From the IMG/VR virus record IMGVR_UViG_3300036770_005754, positions 7,472 through 71,471 of that record: a stretch of 64,000 nt of DNA; one strand, given 5' to 3'. Numbering within the stretch: the first letter of the stretch is position 1; each line of letters begins with the position of its first letter. The DNA is from a virus. This document shows, one piece after another, positions 15,406 through 59,392 of this stretch. The notes below the pieces were generated by a model, which worked only from the letters and a program-made list of their open reading frames with translations, ran no database searches and was not told the DNA's origin. The position numbers and the translations under genes are program-made.

Positions 15406-16872
15406 ATGGAACTCTACCAAACACTAACTAGAACCATCACCGAAGAAATCGACTATACTAATACACCCCCAGAAATAGTGGATAGGTTGAGACCACTCAA
15501 ATCACACGAACAAGAATGGGGAATCAGAGAATACCACAACGGAGAAAACATCGACAATATCCTAGACTCAATAGAAATCTACAACAACAACATAAGAGAT
15601 AACAGATACAACAGCATACTAGTCAGACACAACCGTAACTACAAGAACATATTCAACTACACCTCCAGAATCATCCACAGCGCCCTCACAGAATTTGAAG
15701 AACTGAGGGCCCCAAAACCCAGCAACCGCAAACTCCAAGAATCCCACAGAAACTGGAGCATTGAAGAACCGCCATACTCGGAAATACTAGTTGATAACAA
15801 CAGATTAAGAATAGTAAAAGTACAAAGGGCCGATGATACTGGGAAAGCGGCTAAAATAGCCAGCGATATGAGTCACAAATCAGAATGGTGTACGGTTAAT
15901 GTTGGAAAAGCTGATGACTACCTTAGTAGGGGTAACCTGTACTTCATTCTACTTGATGGTGAGAAGTATTTATATCATGCCGAAGCCCAACAGTTAATGG
16001 ATTTTGGGAATAGGCCTTTTAGGATTTCTGAGGAGGTTTATTATTTACTGTCAGATTATATTCCTGATATTGGTTTATTCATGGAGGATGAGCATAGCGA
16101 GATTTATAAGAATGCCGCTATAAAGTATCCTCTGGTTGCTTGTATGTATGCTCGTGACGTTCTAAGAGGCAGGTGGCCAGAAGCAGAATCAATTATAATG
16201 AAGGACCCTTTGGTTGCTTACAATTATGCTGTTGATACCATTAAAAGTAGATGGTTTGAGGCAGAACCGGCTATAATGAAGTATCCTAAGGCTGCTTGCG
16301 TGTATGCTTATAGCGTTCTAAGAGGCAGGTGGATAGAAGCAGAGCCGATTATAATCCAAGACCCTTGGTCCGCTGCCCATTATACTCATCACGTTCTCAA
16401 ACGTAGGTGGCCTGGAGCAGAACCGATAATAATGAAAGATCCGGATTCTGCTTGTGATTATGCTATTTATGTTCTTAAACGTAGATGGCCAGAAGCAGAA
16501 CCAAACATAATGAAGAACGCTGGGGCCGCTACCAATTATGCTATTAATATTCTTGAACGCAGGTGGCTGGAAGTAGAACCAATTATAATGAAGGACCCTT
16601 GGTCCGCAAACCACTACGCTAGATATGTTCTAGAACGAAGGTGGCCTGAGGCAGAACCAATTATAATGAATGATCATTGGGCTGCCTTCTATTATGCTCG
16701 GGATGTCCTTAAACGTGAATGGCCAGAAGCAGAACCAAACATAATGAAAAACCCTGGAGGGGCCCATAGTTATGCTAAATATATTCTTAAACGCAGGTGG
16801 CCAGAAGCAGAACCAAACATAATGAAAGACCCTAACGCCGCGAAGCATTACAAAGAAGACTTCGATATATGA
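15406..16872 (+). CDS. 26-aa repeat family protein, paralog 1 (9 full repeats plus capping unit)
   Basis: ~235-aa N-terminal region shared with three paralogs (contains SEWCT...LYFILLDGEKY...QLMDF), then repeats of MKDPxxAxxYAxxVLxRRWPEAEPxI. Confidence 0.9.
   Translation: MELYQTLTRTITEEIDYTNTPPEIVDRLRPLKSHEQEWGIREYHNGENIDNILDSIEIYNNNIRDNRYNSILVRHNRNYKNIFNYTSRIIHSALTEFEELRAPKPSNRKLQESHRNWSIEEPPYSEILVDNNRLRIVKVQRADDTGKAAKIASDMSHKSEWCTVNVGKADDYLSRGNLYFILLDGEKYLYHAEAQQLMDFGNRPFRISEEVYYLLSDYIPDIGLFMEDEHSEIYKNAAIKYPLVACMYARDVLRGRWPEAESIIMKDPLVAYNYAVDTIKSRWFEAEPAIMKYPKAACVYAYSVLRGRWIEAEPIIIQDPWSAAHYTHHVLKRRWPGAEPIIMKDPDSACDYAIYVLKRRWPEAEPNIMKNAGAATNYAINILERRWLEVEPIIMKDPWSANHYARYVLERRWPEAEPIIMNDHWAAFYYARDVLKREWPEAEPNIMKNPGGAHSYAKYILKRRWPEAEPNIMKDPNAAKHYKEDFDI
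16120..16860 (+). repeat. Coding tandem array of ~78-nt units
   Basis: Recurrent TGGCCAGAAGCAGAACCA core at ~78-nt spacing. Confidence 0.9.
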
Positions 16873-18011
16873 AACTGTGCCAAATACTAACCAGAACCCT
16901 CACCGAAGAAATAGACTACACCAACATACCCCCAGAAATAGCAGACAGACTAAAACCACTCAAACCACACGAACAAGAATGGGGAATCAGAGAATACCAC
17001 AACGGAGAAACCATAAACAACATCCTAGATTCCATAGAAATCTACAACAATAACATAAAAGACAACAGATACAGCAGCATACTAGCCAGACACAACCCCA
17101 ACTACAAGAACATATTCAACTACACCTCCAGGATAATCCACAGCGCCCTCACAGAATTTGAAGAACTAAGGGCACCAAAACCCAGCAACCGCAAACTCCA
17201 AGAATCCCGCAAGAACTGGAGTATTGAAGAACCACCATACTCAGAAATCCTAGTCAACAATAATAGGTTAAGAGTAATAAAAGTCAAGAGAGTCGATGAT
17301 ACTGGGAAAGCTGCTAAAATAGCTAATGACATGAGCCACAAGTCAGAATGGTGCACAGTCAATGTCGAAAAAGCAGATCATTACCTTGGCAGGGATGATT
17401 TGTACTTCATTCTGCTTGATGGTGAGAAGTACTTGTGCCATATCAAGTCTAAACAACTGATGGATTTTTGGAATAGGCCTTTTAGGATTTCCGAGGAGCT
17501 TTACCATTTACTATCAGATTATGTCCCTGATATTGGTTTATTCATCAAGGACAAACATAGTGAGATTTACAAGAATATTGTTATAAAGCACCCTAAGGCT
17601 GCTTACGATTATGCTTCACGTGTTCTTGGACGTAGATGGCCCGAGGCAGAACCAACCATAATCAAGGACCCTTTTATCGCTTATAGTTATGCTCGATATG
17701 TTCTAGATCGTCGATGGCCAGAAGCAGAACCAATCATAATGAGGGACGCTAAGGCCGCTGCCTATTATGCTCATCATGTTCTAGATCGTCGCTCCGTTGC
17801 CAGGTCGAGAATCCGCAGCCGGTGGCTCGAGGCAGAACCAATCATAATGAATGACCCTTGGGCTGCCGCCTATTATGCTATTTATGTTCTAGAACGTAGG
17901 TGGCCAGAAGTAGAACCGATGATAATGAAAGACCATAATGCTGCGAAACAGTACAAGGAGTTCTTCGGCATGCCTGGATGCTGTGAGTCATGCGAACAGT
18001 GGCTTTACTAA
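16869..18011 (+). CDS. 26-aa repeat family protein, paralog 2 (4 full repeats plus capping unit)
   Basis: Same N-terminal region and repeat consensus; ATGA overlap with paralog 1. Confidence 0.9.
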   Translation: MKLCQILTRTLTEEIDYTNIPPEIADRLKPLKPHEQEWGIREYHNGETINNILDSIEIYNNNIKDNRYSSILARHNPNYKNIFNYTSRIIHSALTEFEELRAPKPSNRKLQESRKNWSIEEPPYSEILVNNNRLRVIKVKRVDDTGKAAKIANDMSHKSEWCTVNVEKADHYLGRDDLYFILLDGEKYLCHIKSKQLMDFWNRPFRISEELYHLLSDYVPDIGLFIKDKHSEIYKNIVIKHPKAAYDYASRVLGRRWPEAEPTIIKDPFIAYSYARYVLDRRWPEAEPIIMRDAKAAAYYAHHVLDRRSVARSRIRSRWLEAEPIIMNDPWAAAYYAIYVLERRWPEVEPMIMKDHNAAKQYKEFFGMPGCCESCEQWLY

Positions 18012-33656: not shown

Positions 33657-34823
33657 TCAGAGTTCTTCTGGCAACTTGAAGTACGCTCTATACAGCTTTG
33701 CGGTCCAAGGGTCCTTCATTATTGTTGGTTCTGCTTCTTGCCATCTACGTCCAAGAACATATCGAGCATAACTATAAGCGATAATAGGTTGATTCATTAT
33801 TACCGGCTCCGCTTCTGGCCATCTGCGTTTAAGGGCTTTTTCAGCGTAATTGGCAGCAGATCGAGGGTCTTGGATTATGGTTGGCTCTGCTTCTGGCCAT
33901 TCACGTTTAAGAATATAACAGGCATAGGCAGAAGCAGCCGTGGGGTTCTTTACTATGATCGGTTCTGCTTCTGGCCATCTGCGTTTAAGAACACTAATGG
34001 TGTATAAGAACACAGCCTCTGGATCCTTCAGTATAATTGGTTCTACCTCAGGCCACTCACGTTTAAGAACATGCCGAGCATAATCACAAGCAGCCTGGGG
34101 ATGCTTGATCATAGCATTCTTATAAATCTCGCTGTGCTTATCCTTCATGAATAAACCAACATCAGGCACATAATCTGATAGTAAATAGTAAACCCCCTCC
34201 GAAATCCTAAAAGGCCTATTCCTAAAATCCATCAGCTGATTAGATTGTATGTGACACAAGTACTTCTTACCATCAAGCAGAATGAAGTACAGATCATCCT
34301 TGCCAAGGTAATCATCTGCTATTTCGACATTGACTGTGCACCATTCGGTTTTGTTGCTTATGTCACTGGCTATTTTAGCAGCTTTGCCAGTATCGTCGAC
34401 TCTCTGTACTTTTATTATTCTTAGTCTATTATTATTGACTAGGATTTCTGAGTATGGTGGTTCTTCAATACTCCAGTTCCTGCGGGATTCTTGGAGTTTT
34501 CTATTGCTGGGTTTTGGTGCCCTTAGTTCTTCAAATTCTGTGAGGGCGCTGTGTATTATTCTGGAGGTGTAGTTGAATATGTTTTTATAGTTGGGGTTGT
34601 GTCTGGCTAGGATTTTACTGTATCTGTTGTCTCTTATATTATTATTGTATATGGCGATTGAGTCTAGGATGTTGTTGATGTTTTCTCCGTTGTGATATTC
34701 TTTGATTCCCCATTCTTGTTCGTGTGGTTTGAGTGGTTTTAGTCTTTCCGCTATTTCTGGGGGTATGTTAGTGTAGTCTATTCCTTCGGTGAGGGTTCTG
34801 GTTAGTATTTGGCAGAGTTTCAT
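33657..34823 (-). CDS. 26-aa repeat family protein, paralog 3 (5 full repeats plus capping unit)
   Basis: Same N-terminal region and RWPEAEP repeats as 15406 and 16869. Confidence 0.9.
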   Translation of the reverse strand: MKLCQILTRTLTEGIDYTNIPPEIAERLKPLKPHEQEWGIKEYHNGENINNILDSIAIYNNNIRDNRYSKILARHNPNYKNIFNYTSRIIHSALTEFEELRAPKPSNRKLQESRRNWSIEEPPYSEILVNNNRLRIIKVQRVDDTGKAAKIASDISNKTEWCTVNVEIADDYLGKDDLYFILLDGKKYLCHIQSNQLMDFRNRPFRISEGVYYLLSDYVPDVGLFMKDKHSEIYKNAMIKHPQAACDYARHVLKREWPEVEPIILKDPEAVFLYTISVLKRRWPEAEPIIVKNPTAASAYACYILKREWPEAEPTIIQDPRSAANYAEKALKRRWPEAEPVIMNQPIIAYSYARYVLGRRWQEAEPTIMKDPWTAKLYRAYFKLPEEL

Positions 34824-35968
34824 ATGTTGAAGTGTTCCTTATACTCGTATGCGGCATTAGGGTCTTTCATTATGTTTGGTTCTACTTCTGGCCATCTATG
34901 TCCAAGAACATGAATAGCATAATAGGCGGCAGCCCAAGGGTTTTTTATTATGTTTGGCTCTGCTTCTGGCCATCTACGTTTAAGAACATGAATAGCGTAT
35001 TGCGTAGCAGTCCAGGGGTCCTTCATTATGGTTGGTTCTGCTTCTGGCCATGTATTTTTAATAACCTGCCAAGCGTACCAATTAGCAATAGCACTCTTCA
35101 TTATGATCGACTCTGCTTCTGGCCACCTACGTTTAAGAACATGCTTAGCGTACTCAGAAGCAGCATAAGGGTCCTTCATTATGATCGGCTCTGCTTCTGG
35201 CCACCTACGTTTAAGAACATGCTTAGCGTACTCAGAAGCAGCATAAGGGTCCTTCATTATAGTATTCTTATAAATCTCGCTGTCGATCCACACGAATAAA
35301 CCAACATCAGGCACATAATCTGACAACAAATAATAAACCTCCTCAGAAATCATAAAAGACTCATTCCAGAAATCCATTAGTTGTTTAGATTGTATGTGAC
35401 ACAAGTACTTCTCACCATCAAGCAGAATGAAGTACAGATCATCCTTGCCAAGGTAATCATCTGCTTTCTCGACATTGACTGTGCACCATTCGGTTTTGTG
35501 ACTCATATCGCTAGCTATTTTAGCCGCTTTACCAGTATCGTCGACTCTCTGTACTTTTATTATTCTTAGTCTATTATTATTGACTAGGATTTCTGAGTAT
35601 GGTGGTTCTTCAATACTCCAGTTCCTGCGGGATTCTTGGAGTTTGCGATTGCTGGGTTTTGGTACCCTTAGTTCTTCAAATTCTGTGAGGGCACTGTGTA
35701 TTATTCTGGAGGTGTAGTTGAATATGTTTTTATAGTTGGGGTTGTGTCTGGCTAGTATGCTGCTGTATCTGTTGTCTTTTATGTTGTCATTGTATATGGC
35801 GATTGAGTCTAGGATGTTGTTGATTGTTTCTCCGTTGTGGTATTCTTTGATTCCCCATTCTTGTTCGTGTGGTTTGAGTGGTTTTAGTCTTTCCGCTATT
35901 TCTGGGGGTATGTTGGTGTAGTCGATTCCCTCGGTGAGGGTTCTGGTTAGTATTTGGCAGAGTTTCAT
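34820..35968 (-). CDS. 26-aa repeat family protein, paralog 4 (5 repeats plus capping unit)
   Basis: Same family; first two repeats nearly identical in DNA; ATGA overlap with paralog 3. Confidence 0.9.
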   Translation of the reverse strand: MKLCQILTRTLTEGIDYTNIPPEIAERLKPLKPHEQEWGIKEYHNGETINNILDSIAIYNDNIKDNRYSSILARHNPNYKNIFNYTSRIIHSALTEFEELRVPKPSNRKLQESRRNWSIEEPPYSEILVNNNRLRIIKVQRVDDTGKAAKIASDMSHKTEWCTVNVEKADDYLGKDDLYFILLDGEKYLCHIQSKQLMDFWNESFMISEEVYYLLSDYVPDVGLFVWIDSEIYKNTIMKDPYAASEYAKHVLKRRWPEAEPIIMKDPYAASEYAKHVLKRRWPEAESIIMKSAIANWYAWQVIKNTWPEAEPTIMKDPWTATQYAIHVLKRRWPEAEPNIIKNPWAAAYYAIHVLGHRWPEVEPNIMKDPNAAYEYKEHFNI

Positions 35969-46585: not shown

Positions 46586-49258
46586 TCAAGAAGCTGGGAA
46601 CAGAACTAGTGAGAATTGACTTTCACTCGTTTTCTTTGACACTATATTATTAATCGACTCGTCGTAAACGAACCTTATATTACCATCATTCGGTGGTAAT
46701 ACAAAAGATTTACCATCAAAAGTCGGCCAAGCAAACGCCGGGTATTTCCCGAGTAATTCAAAAGCTTCTTCAGCACATTTGATACTTGATGCTCCTTTGG
46801 AAGCACTGCTTCCGACTATGATATAATCTTGCCCACCTATGTTCATGACAACACCACGACGATTATCACTATCCCACAAATCCTTGTATAAATTCAAATG
46901 CTCATTCGACAGAAAACATGAGAACGAATCAGCACTATTATAGATTTCTAAAGTTTCTCTAGCGAATCCTTGTGTGTGTTCAATATAAACAGTAGATGAT
47001 CCTGAAGCATTTTGACTCGGTATTATTGGATAATAGAGATATACCATACCTCCATCGTGGTTGAAAGCTATCGTTAAGCCTTGATACGAATTCCTTGCGT
47101 CTTCTAAAGTACCGAATCTTCCTTTGTCTAAAAATTGTATAACCCTCTTGTCTCCATTTTCAGCATACTGGATCTTTATCGGGAGCCCGAACTTATCAGC
47201 TATTTTTACATCAGTAGCTGTTATTGTGGCAGTATACCTTCCTTTAGGCAACTCGACAGTCGATGCCGTTTTTGCGCTGGAAGTATTCAGCAACGGGTCT
47301 ACTACAACGACCCAGCCTTTTCGTGTCCCCTCATCATCAATAGCATTGGTTTTAGTCACCTGGCCCTGAATCGGATCTACATATGTTATCTTGATCGAAC
47401 CAGACAACCATAAACCCATACTCGTCCTTAAAGTACCATTCACCCATGTTGGAAACTTATCTCTGGCTGGTCCACTAACAGCTAATCCATCTTCACACCA
47501 GTCTTTTATTAGCTGTGGGGCATTATTGACGTCGCCTTTAAATCTAGGTAAAGGTTTTCTATCGCACCAATCCGAAAATGGCCAAACAACTCTGTTAGAC
47601 GGTCCGAACGCATCATTGATACTACCACTTTTAAAATCGCCTTCCCAGGGTCTTAATGTCAAATTCGATAATTTTTGTAGTACACTGATTGGTTCGCCGC
47701 TACAACCCAATAACTGAATATCGTTGTCTGTTAAATCCCTAGAATAAATCACATACGGCCCAATAACATCTATATATGGAACGCCATTAAATCCTCTCTC
47801 TGAATAAACTTGCAACCGTGTGTTAGGACCTATGGCTACCGATGCGATACCTGTATTAATTGAATTAAGCGAAGGTGAAGATGAACCTTTATAAATATTA
47901 TACACATTAGGAAGATATGTCTTAATATCTTCCTCACTACTCAACAAAACAGGCCTGCGGATTATATCACTCGTCTTACCACGACTATTTGCACCAGTAC
48001 CGAATGTCGAAGTAGAACCGCACGGGAAGTTATCTATAATGTTGTCAAAAGTGTCTGAAATAATCAAAGCATCGAAATGTACGAAAGCATCGCCATCATC
48101 ATTGCTAACAGCACACAGATCCTTCCCATCGGGCAGGCGTGGTAATAAGCTCGTAGAACTTATCTCCACAGCAACATCACTATCACGGCTGTGTAGGTTG
48201 ATCCTAGCACCCTTAGAGCCCACGACGGCCGCGGCTACAGATTCCATGTGCCAACGCTGATCAATACTCTTAGTAGCAGACATACAATATTCTAAAGCGC
48301 AGCACAGGGCCGCTTTCTGCTCATCGAAAAGGTCAGACATTGTTTGTATCCAAAATCTGACTATATCCTCATACCCCTTCTTCAGCCTATGCACCTCTGA
48401 CAAGAACTTAGAACGAACTATATCAATTAGCGGTTCTATATCAATGTAATAAACCGGCTGAGGATTACCGGCCACATTTGTGACGGCCAAAACCCAGAAA
48501 CTATTAGAATCTCTGACATTGAAACTAGATGTAGACAACGCTTGACTACCAACGACTTGTCTATCGAATTCCAAGATAAAACTCTTATCAGTATTATCAA
48601 TTAGCCTAGCAGTGACCAAAGCCCTCTTCAATCCTGGTCTTGCTTCAGCATTTATAGGTTCTGGATCGATTATTAAATCGCATGGTGGCGCAAGACCTTG
48701 AGTGCCCTTGTTTCCAGCCGGACCTGATAAAATGTTGTTGATACCATCATCACCGGTGTCTCCTTTATCGCCCGTATCACCAACCAACCCCTGGAGGTTC
48801 AATTTGCCTCTGGATATTAGCTCTCTGACAAGTTCTGGTATATCTAAAGTGAAATCAAAACCATACGTATGTTGGTGTATATGGAATGGGTGGCTTGTGC
48901 TTACTATATCACCAAATTCGTTTATGTTTCTTATATCAACATTACCATCAACGCCTACGAACCTATCACCTGAGTATAATTGGACTGTACCATATTGAAA
49001 TGGCGTCGGGCAATCAGTACCAGTTATCGTCGATTGCGGCGGAGGCAATAGCAATCTATTCAATTTTCTTAGATCTTCTGAGGACATAGCCCCCTTTTTA
49101 ATCGGGGTCGCAAGCTCTATTATAAAATTGTCCGATCTAACCTCTAGCCACCCATTGACGCCAGCGTCATATTGATATAAGAGCCCACTTTTCACCTCGT
49201 AAATGTCACCGTGCCTTGGGTTGTTCGGAAACTTAGTATTCACAATTTTATATTCCAA
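46586..49258 (-). CDS. Putative tail fibre/virion protein with short collagen-like segment
   Basis: FPNNPRHGDIY...LYQYD...W N-terminus; GAMSSEDLRKL; GDTGDKGDTGDDG and GPAGNKGTQG triplets. Confidence 0.6.
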   Translation of the reverse strand: MEYKIVNTKFPNNPRHGDIYEVKSGLLYQYDAGVNGWLEVRSDNFIIELATPIKKGAMSSEDLRKLNRLLLPPPQSTITGTDCPTPFQYGTVQLYSGDRFVGVDGNVDIRNINEFGDIVSTSHPFHIHQHTYGFDFTLDIPELVRELISRGKLNLQGLVGDTGDKGDTGDDGINNILSGPAGNKGTQGLAPPCDLIIDPEPINAEARPGLKRALVTARLIDNTDKSFILEFDRQVVGSQALSTSSFNVRDSNSFWVLAVTNVAGNPQPVYYIDIEPLIDIVRSKFLSEVHRLKKGYEDIVRFWIQTMSDLFDEQKAALCCALEYCMSATKSIDQRWHMESVAAAVVGSKGARINLHSRDSDVAVEISSTSLLPRLPDGKDLCAVSNDDGDAFVHFDALIISDTFDNIIDNFPCGSTSTFGTGANSRGKTSDIIRRPVLLSSEEDIKTYLPNVYNIYKGSSSPSLNSINTGIASVAIGPNTRLQVYSERGFNGVPYIDVIGPYVIYSRDLTDNDIQLLGCSGEPISVLQKLSNLTLRPWEGDFKSGSINDAFGPSNRVVWPFSDWCDRKPLPRFKGDVNNAPQLIKDWCEDGLAVSGPARDKFPTWVNGTLRTSMGLWLSGSIKITYVDPIQGQVTKTNAIDDEGTRKGWVVVVDPLLNTSSAKTASTVELPKGRYTATITATDVKIADKFGLPIKIQYAENGDKRVIQFLDKGRFGTLEDARNSYQGLTIAFNHDGGMVYLYYPIIPSQNASGSSTVYIEHTQGFARETLEIYNSADSFSCFLSNEHLNLYKDLWDSDNRRGVVMNIGGQDYIIVGSSASKGASSIKCAEEAFELLGKYPAFAWPTFDGKSFVLPPNDGNIRFVYDESINNIVSKKTSESQFSLVLFPAS

Positions 49259-59304: not shown

Positions 59305-59318
59305 GCATTATCTCGAAT

Positions 59319-59389
59319 TTAGCCCGCGAAGATTCGAACTTCGACTTAGAGAACCAAAATCTCTAGTGCTACCATTACACTACGGGCTA
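59319..59389 (-). tRNA. trnQ: tRNA-Gln (anticodon UUG), CCA not encoded
   Basis: TAGCCCG/CGGGCTA acceptor (U1-A72), GTGT/GCAC D arm, AGAGA-TTTTGGT-TCTCT anticodon arm, CGAAG-TTCGAAT-CTTCG T arm. Confidence 0.95.
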
Positions 59390-59392
59390 ATG

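What the first reader, a model, noticed from the sequence alone, without database searches (positions are those of the whole stretch)
16869..17560. Extreme A/C-to-G/T switch of wobble bases inside every repeat-family gene
Seen (hand counts): in paralog 2, about 105 of the first 112 non-Met/Trp codons end in A or C. In paralog 1, 32 of 37 codons at 16000-16113 end in G or T. The same polarity flips at about codons 115-165 in all four copies, including both minus-strand ones, so it follows the gene and not the genome strand. Synonymous differences between copies in the 5' block are often A/C swaps (ATA/ATC, ACC/ACA, TCC/TCA), so the restriction persists as copies diverge. Neighbouring genes are only mildly A-rich. 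Established: G/T enrichment marks the strand exposed as ssDNA (C>T and A>G deamination), and an AC-to-GT flip is the signature of a bidirectional origin. Inference: each copy may hold a local origin or recombination (R/D-loop) initiation site with long opposite-strand ssDNA exposure. Alternatively the mRNA has an unstructured 5' part under selection. The copies share ancestry, so they are not four independent observations.
Basis: partly seen in the sequence, partly recalled or inferred. Interest (0 to 1): 0.8.

Follow-up and report, generated by a model that had tools for sequence, protein, structure and literature searches.

The report
Skewed silent-site repeat in phage genes
The constant 0.75-kb front part of a seven-copy phage gene family is written almost only with A/C-ending codons and then with G/T-ending codons, which fits a published but unexplained class of repeats (GRINS) and gives no sign of a replication origin in each gene.

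Summary
The genome record holds seven paralogs, not four. In each, codons 1-129 end in A/C about 89% of the time. Codons 130-169 are a transition zone, codons 170-250 are about 70-75% G/T-ending, and the repeat arrays are neutral.

The skew is not unique to this family. Three other blocks of the same record reach similar values. One of them crosses oppositely oriented genes with mirror-image codon use. Intergenic DNA follows the local skew. The cause therefore acts on DNA strands, not on translation.

Homologues at 36-45% identity lack the extreme skew. [quoted passage not shown] 2021). It is over 500 bp, 83-97% identical between copies, has mean |GC| 0.23-0.26 and |TA| 0.34-0.37, r = 0.8, and changes sign abruptly.

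The skew is strongest far from the flip, so a local origin at the flip is not supported. I infer strand-coordinated transition damage on recombination intermediates near the repeat arrays, spread among copies by gene conversion.

This scan has noted similar amino/keto mosaics on other DNA. Verdict: a new member of a known kind, mechanism still open.

The parts
15406..15792 (+). Paralog c1 (gene 15406-16872), A/C-wobble block, codons 1-129
   Evidence: A/C3 about .85
15793..15912 (+). c1 transition zone, codons 130-169
   Evidence: Three-segment maximum-likelihood split; pooled A/C3 .66
15913..16155 (+). c1 G/T-wobble block, codons 170-250
   Evidence: 33 of 38 codons at 16000-16113 end in G/T; 10-codon bins
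16795..17255 (+). Paralog c2 (gene 16869-18011), A/C block: codons 1-129 plus about 70 nt upstream, inside the last 'capping' unit of c1
   Evidence: A/C3 .90, 105/112. All-position A/C is .7-.8 from about 60-80 nt upstream of the ATG
17256..17375 (+). c2 transition zone, codons 130-169
17376..17618 (+). c2 G/T-wobble block, codons 170-250
34437..34823 (-). Paralog c3 (gene 33657-34823), A/C block, codons 1-129
   Evidence: A/C3 .87; the + strand is G/T-rich here
34074..34316 (-). c3 G/T-wobble block, codons 170-250
35582..35968 (-). Paralog c4 (gene 34820-35968), A/C block, codons 1-129
   Evidence: A/C3 .89
35219..35461 (-). c4 G/T-wobble block, codons 170-250

Best explanation
The roughly 0.75-kb constant region of this phage gene family is a GRINS-type element. 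It is a multi-copy DNA repeat, kept similar by gene conversion, whose silent sites were driven to one-strand A/C and then one-strand G/T by a substitution bias that acts on DNA strands.

The A/C-to-G/T flip travels with the repeat. That is why minus-strand copies show it in gene polarity. It is not an independent origin in each copy.

**Shown:**
- the element's anatomy and its repeat status;
- the DNA-level nature of this kind of skew elsewhere in the same genome;
- its absence from distant homologues.

**Inferred, about 25% on its own:** the bias comes from transition-type damage (C to T and A to G) on the strand left single-stranded during recombination that starts in or next to the hypervariable repeat arrays. 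The strand to the left of an array becomes G/T-rich and the strand to its right becomes A/C-rich. The intragenic A/C-to-G/T change would then be the meeting point of two such tracts. Gene conversion spreads the result to copies that have no upstream array.
For: **GRINS criteria met.** Windows of 150 nt have best identity .83-.97 to another copy over about 700-750 bp. Mean |GC skew| is .23-.26 and mean |TA skew| .34-.37. r(GC,TA) is .79-.86, and the sign changes within 0.5 kb on one strand. Third-position GC and TA skews are -.75/-.73 and then +.24/+.63.

**Gene conversion is likely.** 60% of informative site pairs fail the four-gamete test. The tandem neighbours c3 and c4 are 94-98% identical in the A/C block but 88% identical downstream.

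**The cause is at DNA level in this genome.**
- Two Pfam-confirmed glycosyltransferase genes on opposite strands have A/C3 of .22 and .72.
- Neighbour correlation of A/C3 is +.59 for same-orientation pairs and -.67 for opposite pairs.
- Intergenic A/C follows the flanking wobble skew, r = .61.
- The orthologous cluster in relatives shows the same sign of skew but weaker, and a sister contig at 89% DNA identity is equally extreme.

**The protein does not require it.** Eight homologue genes on seven loci, at 36-45% identity, have A/C3 of about .5-.65.

**Polarity and gradient.** The skew is strongest next to the arrays and gene boundaries and weakest at the flip. The non-family gene just downstream of the last copy c5 has the highest first-60-codon A/C3 of 106 genes (.83, z about 2.5). 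Bidirectional 5'-3' resection gives mutated C on the left and mutated G on the right of a break on the top strand (PMC6786661).

**The bias persists.** A/C swaps outnumber the other transversions available from A or C by 12-13 to 1-2.
Against: - The mechanism is inferred from polarity alone. No break, nick or ssDNA data exist.
- Only one of the three cluster ends shows a strong A/C block in the downstream non-family gene. One is weak (2/17 codons) and one shows nothing.
- Two of the three single-copy skew blocks (131-136 kb and 159 kb) have no tandem array beside them.
- First and second codon positions do not show a block-specific reversal. The amino-acid effect is weak.
- The polarised spectrum between this genome and its 89%-identical sister in another skew block is mixed: T>C 16 against C>T 2, and A>G 8 against G>A 1. 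Ongoing pressure is therefore not demonstrated.
- PHI is only borderline (p about .05).
- The seven copies share ancestry, so the flip is one observation.
Confidence: 0.6

Rival explanations
1. Each copy holds a local bidirectional origin, or a divergent R-loop or D-loop start, at the flip. The template strand would be exposed upstream of it and the coding strand downstream.
For: An A/C-to-G/T change along a strand is the classical origin-type polarity. The third-position composition of the A/C block (A .45, C .42, G .06, T .07) resembles genes on the strand-displaced mitochondrial genome (my own knowledge). A sigma70-like antisense promoter lies at window 17287-17260, at the end of the A/C block of c2.
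Against: The skew is weakest at the flip and strongest far from it. The abrupt step is the opposite one, upstream of the start codons. The antisense promoter motif is present in only 3 of 7 copies, and the region has fewer promoter-like hits than shuffles do. There are no iterons, no conserved palindromes and no AT-rich unwinding element at the junction. There is no genome-level extremum of cumulative skew. A/C blocks occur alone elsewhere, without a G/T partner. The copies are one inherited repeat.
Confidence: 0.1
2. Selection on the transcript or on decoding. The first 130 codons would be kept G/U-poor to give an unstructured, C-rich 5' mRNA, or fast Watson-Crick-decoded codons. A deliberately wobble-decoded slow stretch would follow.
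For: The A/C block RNA folds at -42 to -54 kcal per 426 nt. The genome mean is -104 +/- 21, and the same protein recoded with genome codon usage gives -65 to -71, so z is about +3. A/C-ending codons are the ones matched by G34/U34 anticodons (established knowledge). The bias persists through roughly 18% silent divergence.
Against: Homologues of the same protein lack it. Elsewhere in this genome the same kind of skew follows the DNA strand across opposite genes and into intergenic DNA. The A/C block begins upstream of the start codon, inside the previous gene. There is no complementarity between the two blocks. The only tRNA gene found in the record is tRNA-Gln(UUG).
Confidence: 0.12
3. Inversion scar. 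Two paralogs lay in opposite orientation inside a strongly skewed region, so one became A/C-ending and the other G/T-ending. Recombination between them made a chimera, which later multiplied.
For: Family members exist on both strands. Oppositely oriented genes in the 131-136 kb block do have A/C3 of .14-.22 against .72-.81. Recombination among copies is evident. A crossover gives a sharp junction.
Against: The junction is a 40-codon gradient, not a step. The G/T part fades within about 80 codons instead of running to the gene end. No reciprocal product (G/T first, then A/C) is present. This account still leaves the origin of the regional skew unexplained.
Confidence: 0.13
4. The A/C block was imported from a donor genome with extreme strand composition.
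For: No related DNA or protein turned up in the phage collection or in IMG/VR contigs. One homologue, P0013, shares only residues from about 113 onward.
Against: The whole 235-residue region aligns colinearly with homologues at uniform identity: 37-42% in the A/C block and 36-45% in the G/T block. The flip lies inside a conserved domain, not at a module boundary. Orthologous regions of relatives show that such skews intensify in place.
Confidence: 0.04

Closest known systems
[quoted passage not shown]
   Same: It is a duplicated coding region over 500 bp with more than 80% identity between copies. GC and TA skews are intense and positively correlated, and strongest at third codon positions. 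Within 1 kb on one strand the composition changes abruptly from C+A coding to G+T coding. Homologues in related systems lack it. It is linked to gene conversion and to the diversification of repeat proteins (for the paper; for the tests here).
   Different: GRINS were described in GC-rich Streptomyces polyketide synthase modules and in bacterial genomes. The paper names phage genes only in a survey sentence. Here the element is the constant N-terminal region of a seven-copy family in a 42% GC uncultured large phage. Copies lie on both strands, and the polarity is fixed relative to tandem repeat arrays. The same genome also has single-copy skew blocks. The paper mentions such blocks only as possible precursors or remnants.
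Strand asymmetry of vertebrate mitochondrial DNA (deamination of the strand that stays single-stranded during replication)
   Same: The third-position composition is nearly the same: A and C about .4 each, G about .05, T about .1. It is a transition-type amino/keto axis, and the proteins are retained (the comparison rests on my own knowledge).
   Different: The mitochondrial skew is genome-wide and tied to one replication mode. Here it is confined to 0.2-5 kb blocks, and both signs occur on one strand.
Strand-coordinated mutation clusters at resected double-strand breaks (PMC6786661)
   Same: One-strand transition damage switches strand at a defined point. The known polarity (mutated C on the left, mutated G on the right, on the top strand) matches the G/T | array | A/C order seen in the tandem clusters.
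   Different: Those clusters are single events caused by an expressed deaminase in yeast and in tumours. Here the pattern would have to build up over many generations under purifying selection, and no deaminase gene was found in the record.
Skew jumps at replication origins (bacterial oriC; N-domains of mammalian genomes)
   Same: The sign of the intragenic change, from A/C to G/T along the strand.
   Different: Origin jumps are abrupt and are where the skew is largest. Here the change is gradual and is where the skew is smallest.

Membership tests
GRINS (Nivina et al. 2021) | Duplicated region over 500 bp with more than 80% DNA identity to another region (150-nt windows, step 30) | tested here: met
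   Best-window identity is .83-.97 over about 700-750 bp in all seven copies. Pairwise identity is .81-.98.
GRINS (Nivina et al. 2021) | Mean absolute GC skew and TA skew both above 0.15 across the region | tested here: met
   Mean |GC| is .23-.26 and mean |TA| is .34-.37 in every copy.
GRINS (Nivina et al. 2021) | GC and TA skews correlated; abrupt changes, with both signs on one strand | tested here: met
   r = .79-.86. GC skew runs from -.49 to +.32 and TA skew from -.64 to +.29 within 750 nt.
GRINS (Nivina et al. 2021) | Skew most marked at third codon positions | tested here: met
   Third-position GC/TA skews are -.75/-.73 and then +.24/+.63. Positions 1 and 2 change little between the blocks.
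GRINS (Nivina et al. 2021) | Noticeable effect on amino-acid composition (Gly/Val/Cys/Trp against Pro/Thr/His/Gln) | tested here: inconclusive
   GVCW is .054 in the A/C block against .081 in homologues. PTHQ is .092 in the G/T block against .136 in homologues. The direction is right but the effect is small, and there is no block-specific reversal at codon position 1.
GRINS (Nivina et al. 2021) | Copies much more alike within a genome than to homologues elsewhere; signs of gene conversion | tested here: met
   Identity is 81-98% within the genome. Proteins elsewhere are 36-45% identical and lack the extreme skew. 60% of informative site pairs are incompatible, and identity between c3 and c4 is mosaic. 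PHI is only p about .05.
Replication-origin skew switch | Skew changes sign abruptly at the origin and is largest next to it | tested here: not met
   The transition spans about 40 codons. G/T3 rises from .057 at codons 1-50 to .26 at codons 130-142, so the skew is weakest at the flip.
Replication-origin skew switch | Origin hardware at the switch (initiator sites, unwinding element, promoter for a primer RNA) | tested here: inconclusive
   No conserved promoter, palindrome or AT-rich element was found at the junction. Origins of this phage group are unknown, so a motif search cannot be decisive.
Translational codon-usage selection | Bias follows the coding strand of each gene and is absent from non-coding DNA | tested here: not met
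   Opposite-strand neighbours are mirror images, with residual r = -.67. Intergenic DNA follows the regional skew, r = .61. For the family itself this cannot be separated from inheritance.

The most novel reading that the evidence does not exclude
The skew is a cumulative scar of recombination started in or beside the hypervariable repeat arrays. On each side of an array a different strand is repeatedly left single-stranded and collects C-to-T and A-to-G changes, and gene conversion spreads the recoded tract among the copies. If so, this phage family would supply the missing mechanism for GRINS in general. It would explain why both skew signs occur on one strand and why the elements are tied to repeats. 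It would also show that a phage diversifies a putative packaged effector family through a locally mutagenic recombination hotspot.
Probability: 0.2. Interest if true: 0.75.

Novelty: new member of a known kind. Interest (0 to 1): 0.45.

Why it matters
GRINS were described in 2021 with no mechanism. This case is compact (seven copies in 176 kb) and AT-moderate, so both skew axes are easy to read. It has copies on both strands, a fixed polarity relative to tandem arrays, and single-copy skew blocks with weaker orthologues in relatives.

That combination turns 'where do intense local skews come from' into a testable question: which strand is exposed, where, and when. It also warns that codon-usage or origin-prediction tools will misread such blocks in phage genomes.

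Tried and rejected
- **Overlapping gene.** No alternative frame is open across the A/C block in all copies.
- **Long-range RNA pairing between the A/C and G/T blocks.** Duplex energy equals the codon-shuffled controls.
- **Promoter at the junction.** One antisense sigma70-like match exists, in 3 of 7 copies only, and the region has fewer hits than shuffles.
- **Shared strand-specific motif (Chi-like, primase or binding site).** No common enriched k-mer was found across the skew blocks.
AGGCCT lies about 35-50 codons past the flip and in only 3 copies.
- **Phage-encoded reverse transcriptase or cytidine deaminase.** No Pfam match in the record, which CheckV estimates at only about 49% complete.
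- **tRNA complement.** One tRNA-Gln(UUG) only.
- **Conservation of the skew in the protein family.** Absent or weak in eight homologue genes on seven loci.
- **Transcription-associated asymmetry.** A likely major capsid gene shows no keto skew, and one block has A/C-rich coding strands.
- **Genome-wide replication skew.** There is no V-shaped cumulative profile.
- **Block-specific shift at non-silent positions.** Not seen.
- **Polarised substitution spectrum in a sister contig.** Mixed and too small.
- **Searches of the phage collection and IMG/VR contigs.** No relatives found.
- **Sequencing runs.** One subsurface metagenome holds the DNA, as contigs only, so no population variants or RNA could be read. 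P0013's contig could not be fetched.
Full report
**Observation.** The hand counts are exact: 105 of the first 112 non-Met/Trp codons of c2 end in A/C, and 33 of the 38 codons at 16000-16113 of c1 end in G/T. In codons 1-142 the third position is A .42-.48, C .37-.44, G .05-.08 and T .05-.10. Binomial p against .5 is 1e-17 for c1 and 2e-23 for c2.

The codon table shows how complete the switch is. GAA:GAG is 86:3 in the first block and 1:28 in the second. AAA:AAG is 46:9 against 3:22. AGA:AGG is 49:14 against 0:10. CCA+CCC:CCT is 49:0 against 0:9. The silent first position of Leu follows too, with CTN:TTR at 68:3 against 24:19.

A three-segment likelihood split of the pooled copies puts the boundaries after codons 129 and 169, with A/C3 of .89.66 and .29. 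The repeat arrays that follow are near .5. No other 100-codon stretch of the window exceeds about .75.

**Extent.** The window is bases 7472-71471 of a 176,558-bp virus record. The record is linear and CheckV estimates it at about 49% complete. One subsurface metagenome holds the DNA. The record contains three more paralogs outside the window, at genome 103123-104208, 104438-105541 and 105538-106848, all on the minus strand. The total is seven, in three tandem clusters. A decayed piece of a family 3' end lies upstream of c5. All seven copies show the same gene-relative pattern, with A/C3 of .85-.90 in codons 1-142 and a consensus value of .90.

**The skew is not restricted to this family.** Three other regions of the record reach comparable values:
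- 121.0-122.3 kb, where the plus strand is G/T-rich;
- 131.1-136.1 kb, where the plus strand is A/C-rich;
- 158.7-159.5 kb, in the C-terminal part of a Metallophos nuclease-like gene.

In the 131-136 kb block the skew ignores gene direction. Two Pfam-confirmed glycosyltransferase genes on opposite strands have A/C3 of .22 and .72, and a further pair has .14 and .81. That gene order, including the oppositely oriented genes, is conserved in related contigs, so the genes are real.

Genome-wide, with family genes excluded and orientation means removed, A/C3 of adjacent genes correlates at +.59 for the same orientation and -.67 for opposite orientation. Without the extreme block the opposite-orientation value is -.37. 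The plus-strand A/C content of 62 intergenic spacers follows the wobble skew of the flanking genes, with r = .61 overall and r = .68 among 38 spacers between minus-strand genes. In this genome the amino/keto skew is therefore a regional property of DNA strands and not of translation.

**Relatives.** Eight homologue genes on seven loci, at 36-45% protein identity, were read as DNA (L001, L002, L003, L006-L010). None has the extreme skew. L001, L002, L006 and L008 show a weak trend of the same polarity, and L007, L009 and L010 show none. In L006 two tandem copies are 85% identical over the constant region and carry the weak version.

The orthologue of the most skewed single-copy gene (A/C3 .14 here) has .33-.45 in contigs at 62-85% protein identity, again with mirror-image neighbours. 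It has .10 in a sister contig at 89% DNA identity. Such skews therefore intensify in place within lineages, and the proteins do not require them.

**Tests of specific explanations.**
- No alternative reading frame stays open across the A/C block.
- The A/C block RNA is among the least structured stretches of the genome. It folds at -42 to -54 kcal per 426 nt, against -104 +/- 21 for the genome and -65 to -71 for the same protein recoded. This is a consequence of its composition and does not separate the causes.
- The two blocks are not complementary.
- A sigma70-like antisense promoter at 17287-17260 is present in only three copies, and the region has fewer promoter-like hits than shuffles.
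- No shared motif, iteron or palindrome marks the switch.
- The record encodes no reverse transcriptase and no cytidine deaminase detectable with Pfam. The only tRNA gene found is tRNA-Gln.
- Silent differences between copies are 31 transitions and 12-13 A/C swaps, with only 1-2 other transversions. The restriction to A/C has therefore persisted through about 18% silent divergence. This fits either maintained mutation pressure or selection.
- Codon positions 1 and 2 do not reverse between the blocks, and amino-acid effects are small.
- A polarised spectrum from the sister contig is mixed.

**Polarity and gradient.** The fraction of G/T-ending codons rises along the A/C block.057 in codons 1-50.13 in 51-100.15 in 101-129 and .26 in 130-142. 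The G/T block peaks at codons 181-250. So the skew is weakest at the intragenic flip.

The abrupt step is the other one. In tandem copies the A/C-rich composition begins 60-80 nt upstream of the start codon, inside the last unit of the preceding gene. An origin or R-loop start at the flip predicts the largest skew next to the flip, which is not seen.

Bidirectional 5'-3' resection of a break leaves mutated C on the left and mutated G on the right of the top strand (PMC6786661). That gives G/T-rich and then A/C-rich DNA. This is the order found across each repeat array together with the start of the next gene.

In line with a positional effect, the non-family gene just downstream of the last copy c5 has the highest first-60-codon A/C3 of 106 genes, at .83. 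The convergent gene after c2 is G/T-ending in its last 17 codons. The gene after c3 shows nothing. A collagen-like tandem array lies at the right edge of the 121-122 kb block with the expected sign, but the other single-copy blocks have no array beside them. This mechanism is therefore an inference with partial support.

**Comparison with what is known.** I read the paper (PMC8256042). GRINS are defined as duplicated regions over 500 bp with more than 80% identity and mean absolute GC and TA skews above 0.15. Their skews are correlated, strongest at third positions and change abruptly between C+A and G+T coding on one strand. They are absent from homologous systems and linked to gene conversion, and their mechanism is unknown.

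Applying the same windows here gives identity of .83-.97 over about 700-750 bp, mean |GC| of .23-.26, mean |TA| of .34-.37 and r of .79-.86. Sixty percent of informative site pairs are incompatible with a single tree. The tandem neighbours c3 and c4 are 94-98% identical in the A/C block against 88% downstream, which points to gene conversion. PHI is borderline at p about .05. The element meets the definition.

The authors note that replication-type deamination does not explain both signs on one strand, and that single-copy skewed regions also exist. Both points match this genome. I found no later paper on the mechanism.

**Verdict.** The per-copy origin reading is not supported. The broader idea of a strand-specific footprint linked to recombination is compatible with the data. 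The finding is a new, unusually clean member of a known but unexplained kind. This scan has recorded similar amino/keto mosaics in archaea, Chloroflexi, Bdellovibrio and two other phages. Those are unchecked notes and do not count as support.

**Limits.** The seven copies are one evolutionary observation. There are no expression, ssDNA or population data. Gene calls outside the Pfam-confirmed cases are my own crude ORF calls.

Noticed in passing
L011:11615-16601 (genome 131.1-136.1 kb): A 5-kb single-copy block in which the plus strand is about 75-90% A/C at silent sites across genes of both orientations. It covers the N-terminal part of a tail-fibre-like gene and a glycosyltransferase cluster. 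Orthologous clusters in related contigs show the same sign of skew, only weaker.
   Followed up: partly
L011:1523-2789 (genome 121.0-122.3 kb): Two small minus-strand genes have A/C3 of .82-.84 (A .57). They abut a collagen-like tandem array with a 9-nt period at L011:2681-2989.
   Followed up: partly
L013:1215-1954 (genome 158.7-159.5 kb): The last 120 or so codons of a Metallophos (Mre11/gp47-like) nuclease gene are 70-100% G/T-ending. The rest of the gene is ordinary.
   Followed up: no
L012:1201-1570 (genome 102.7-103.07 kb): The non-family gene directly downstream of paralog c5 looks primase-like by eye (not tested). Its first 60 codons have the highest A/C3 of 106 genes (.83). The value fades to about .5 by codon 130.
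   Followed up: partly
L012:2710-2938 (genome 104209-104437): The 230-nt spacer between c6 and c5 contains a decayed remnant of a family 3' end (capping unit) directly before the c5 start codon. The duplication unit therefore seems to run from a capping unit into the next constant region.
   Followed up: no
L011:13934-14746 (genome 133430-134245): This 271-aa protein has no Pfam match but is very widely conserved. It is 55-96% identical on many large contigs, up to 408 kb, always inside the same glycosyltransferase gene order.
   Followed up: partly
window 59318-59390 (-): The single tRNA gene found in the record, tRNA-Gln(UUG).
   Followed up: no
window 46586-49258 and most other large ORFs: Large proteins of this record have no Pfam match, and an 890-aa ORF has no tblastn match in the 50,697-record phage collection. 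With a CheckV completeness of about 49%, this is probably a fragment of a poorly sampled large phage.
   Followed up: no
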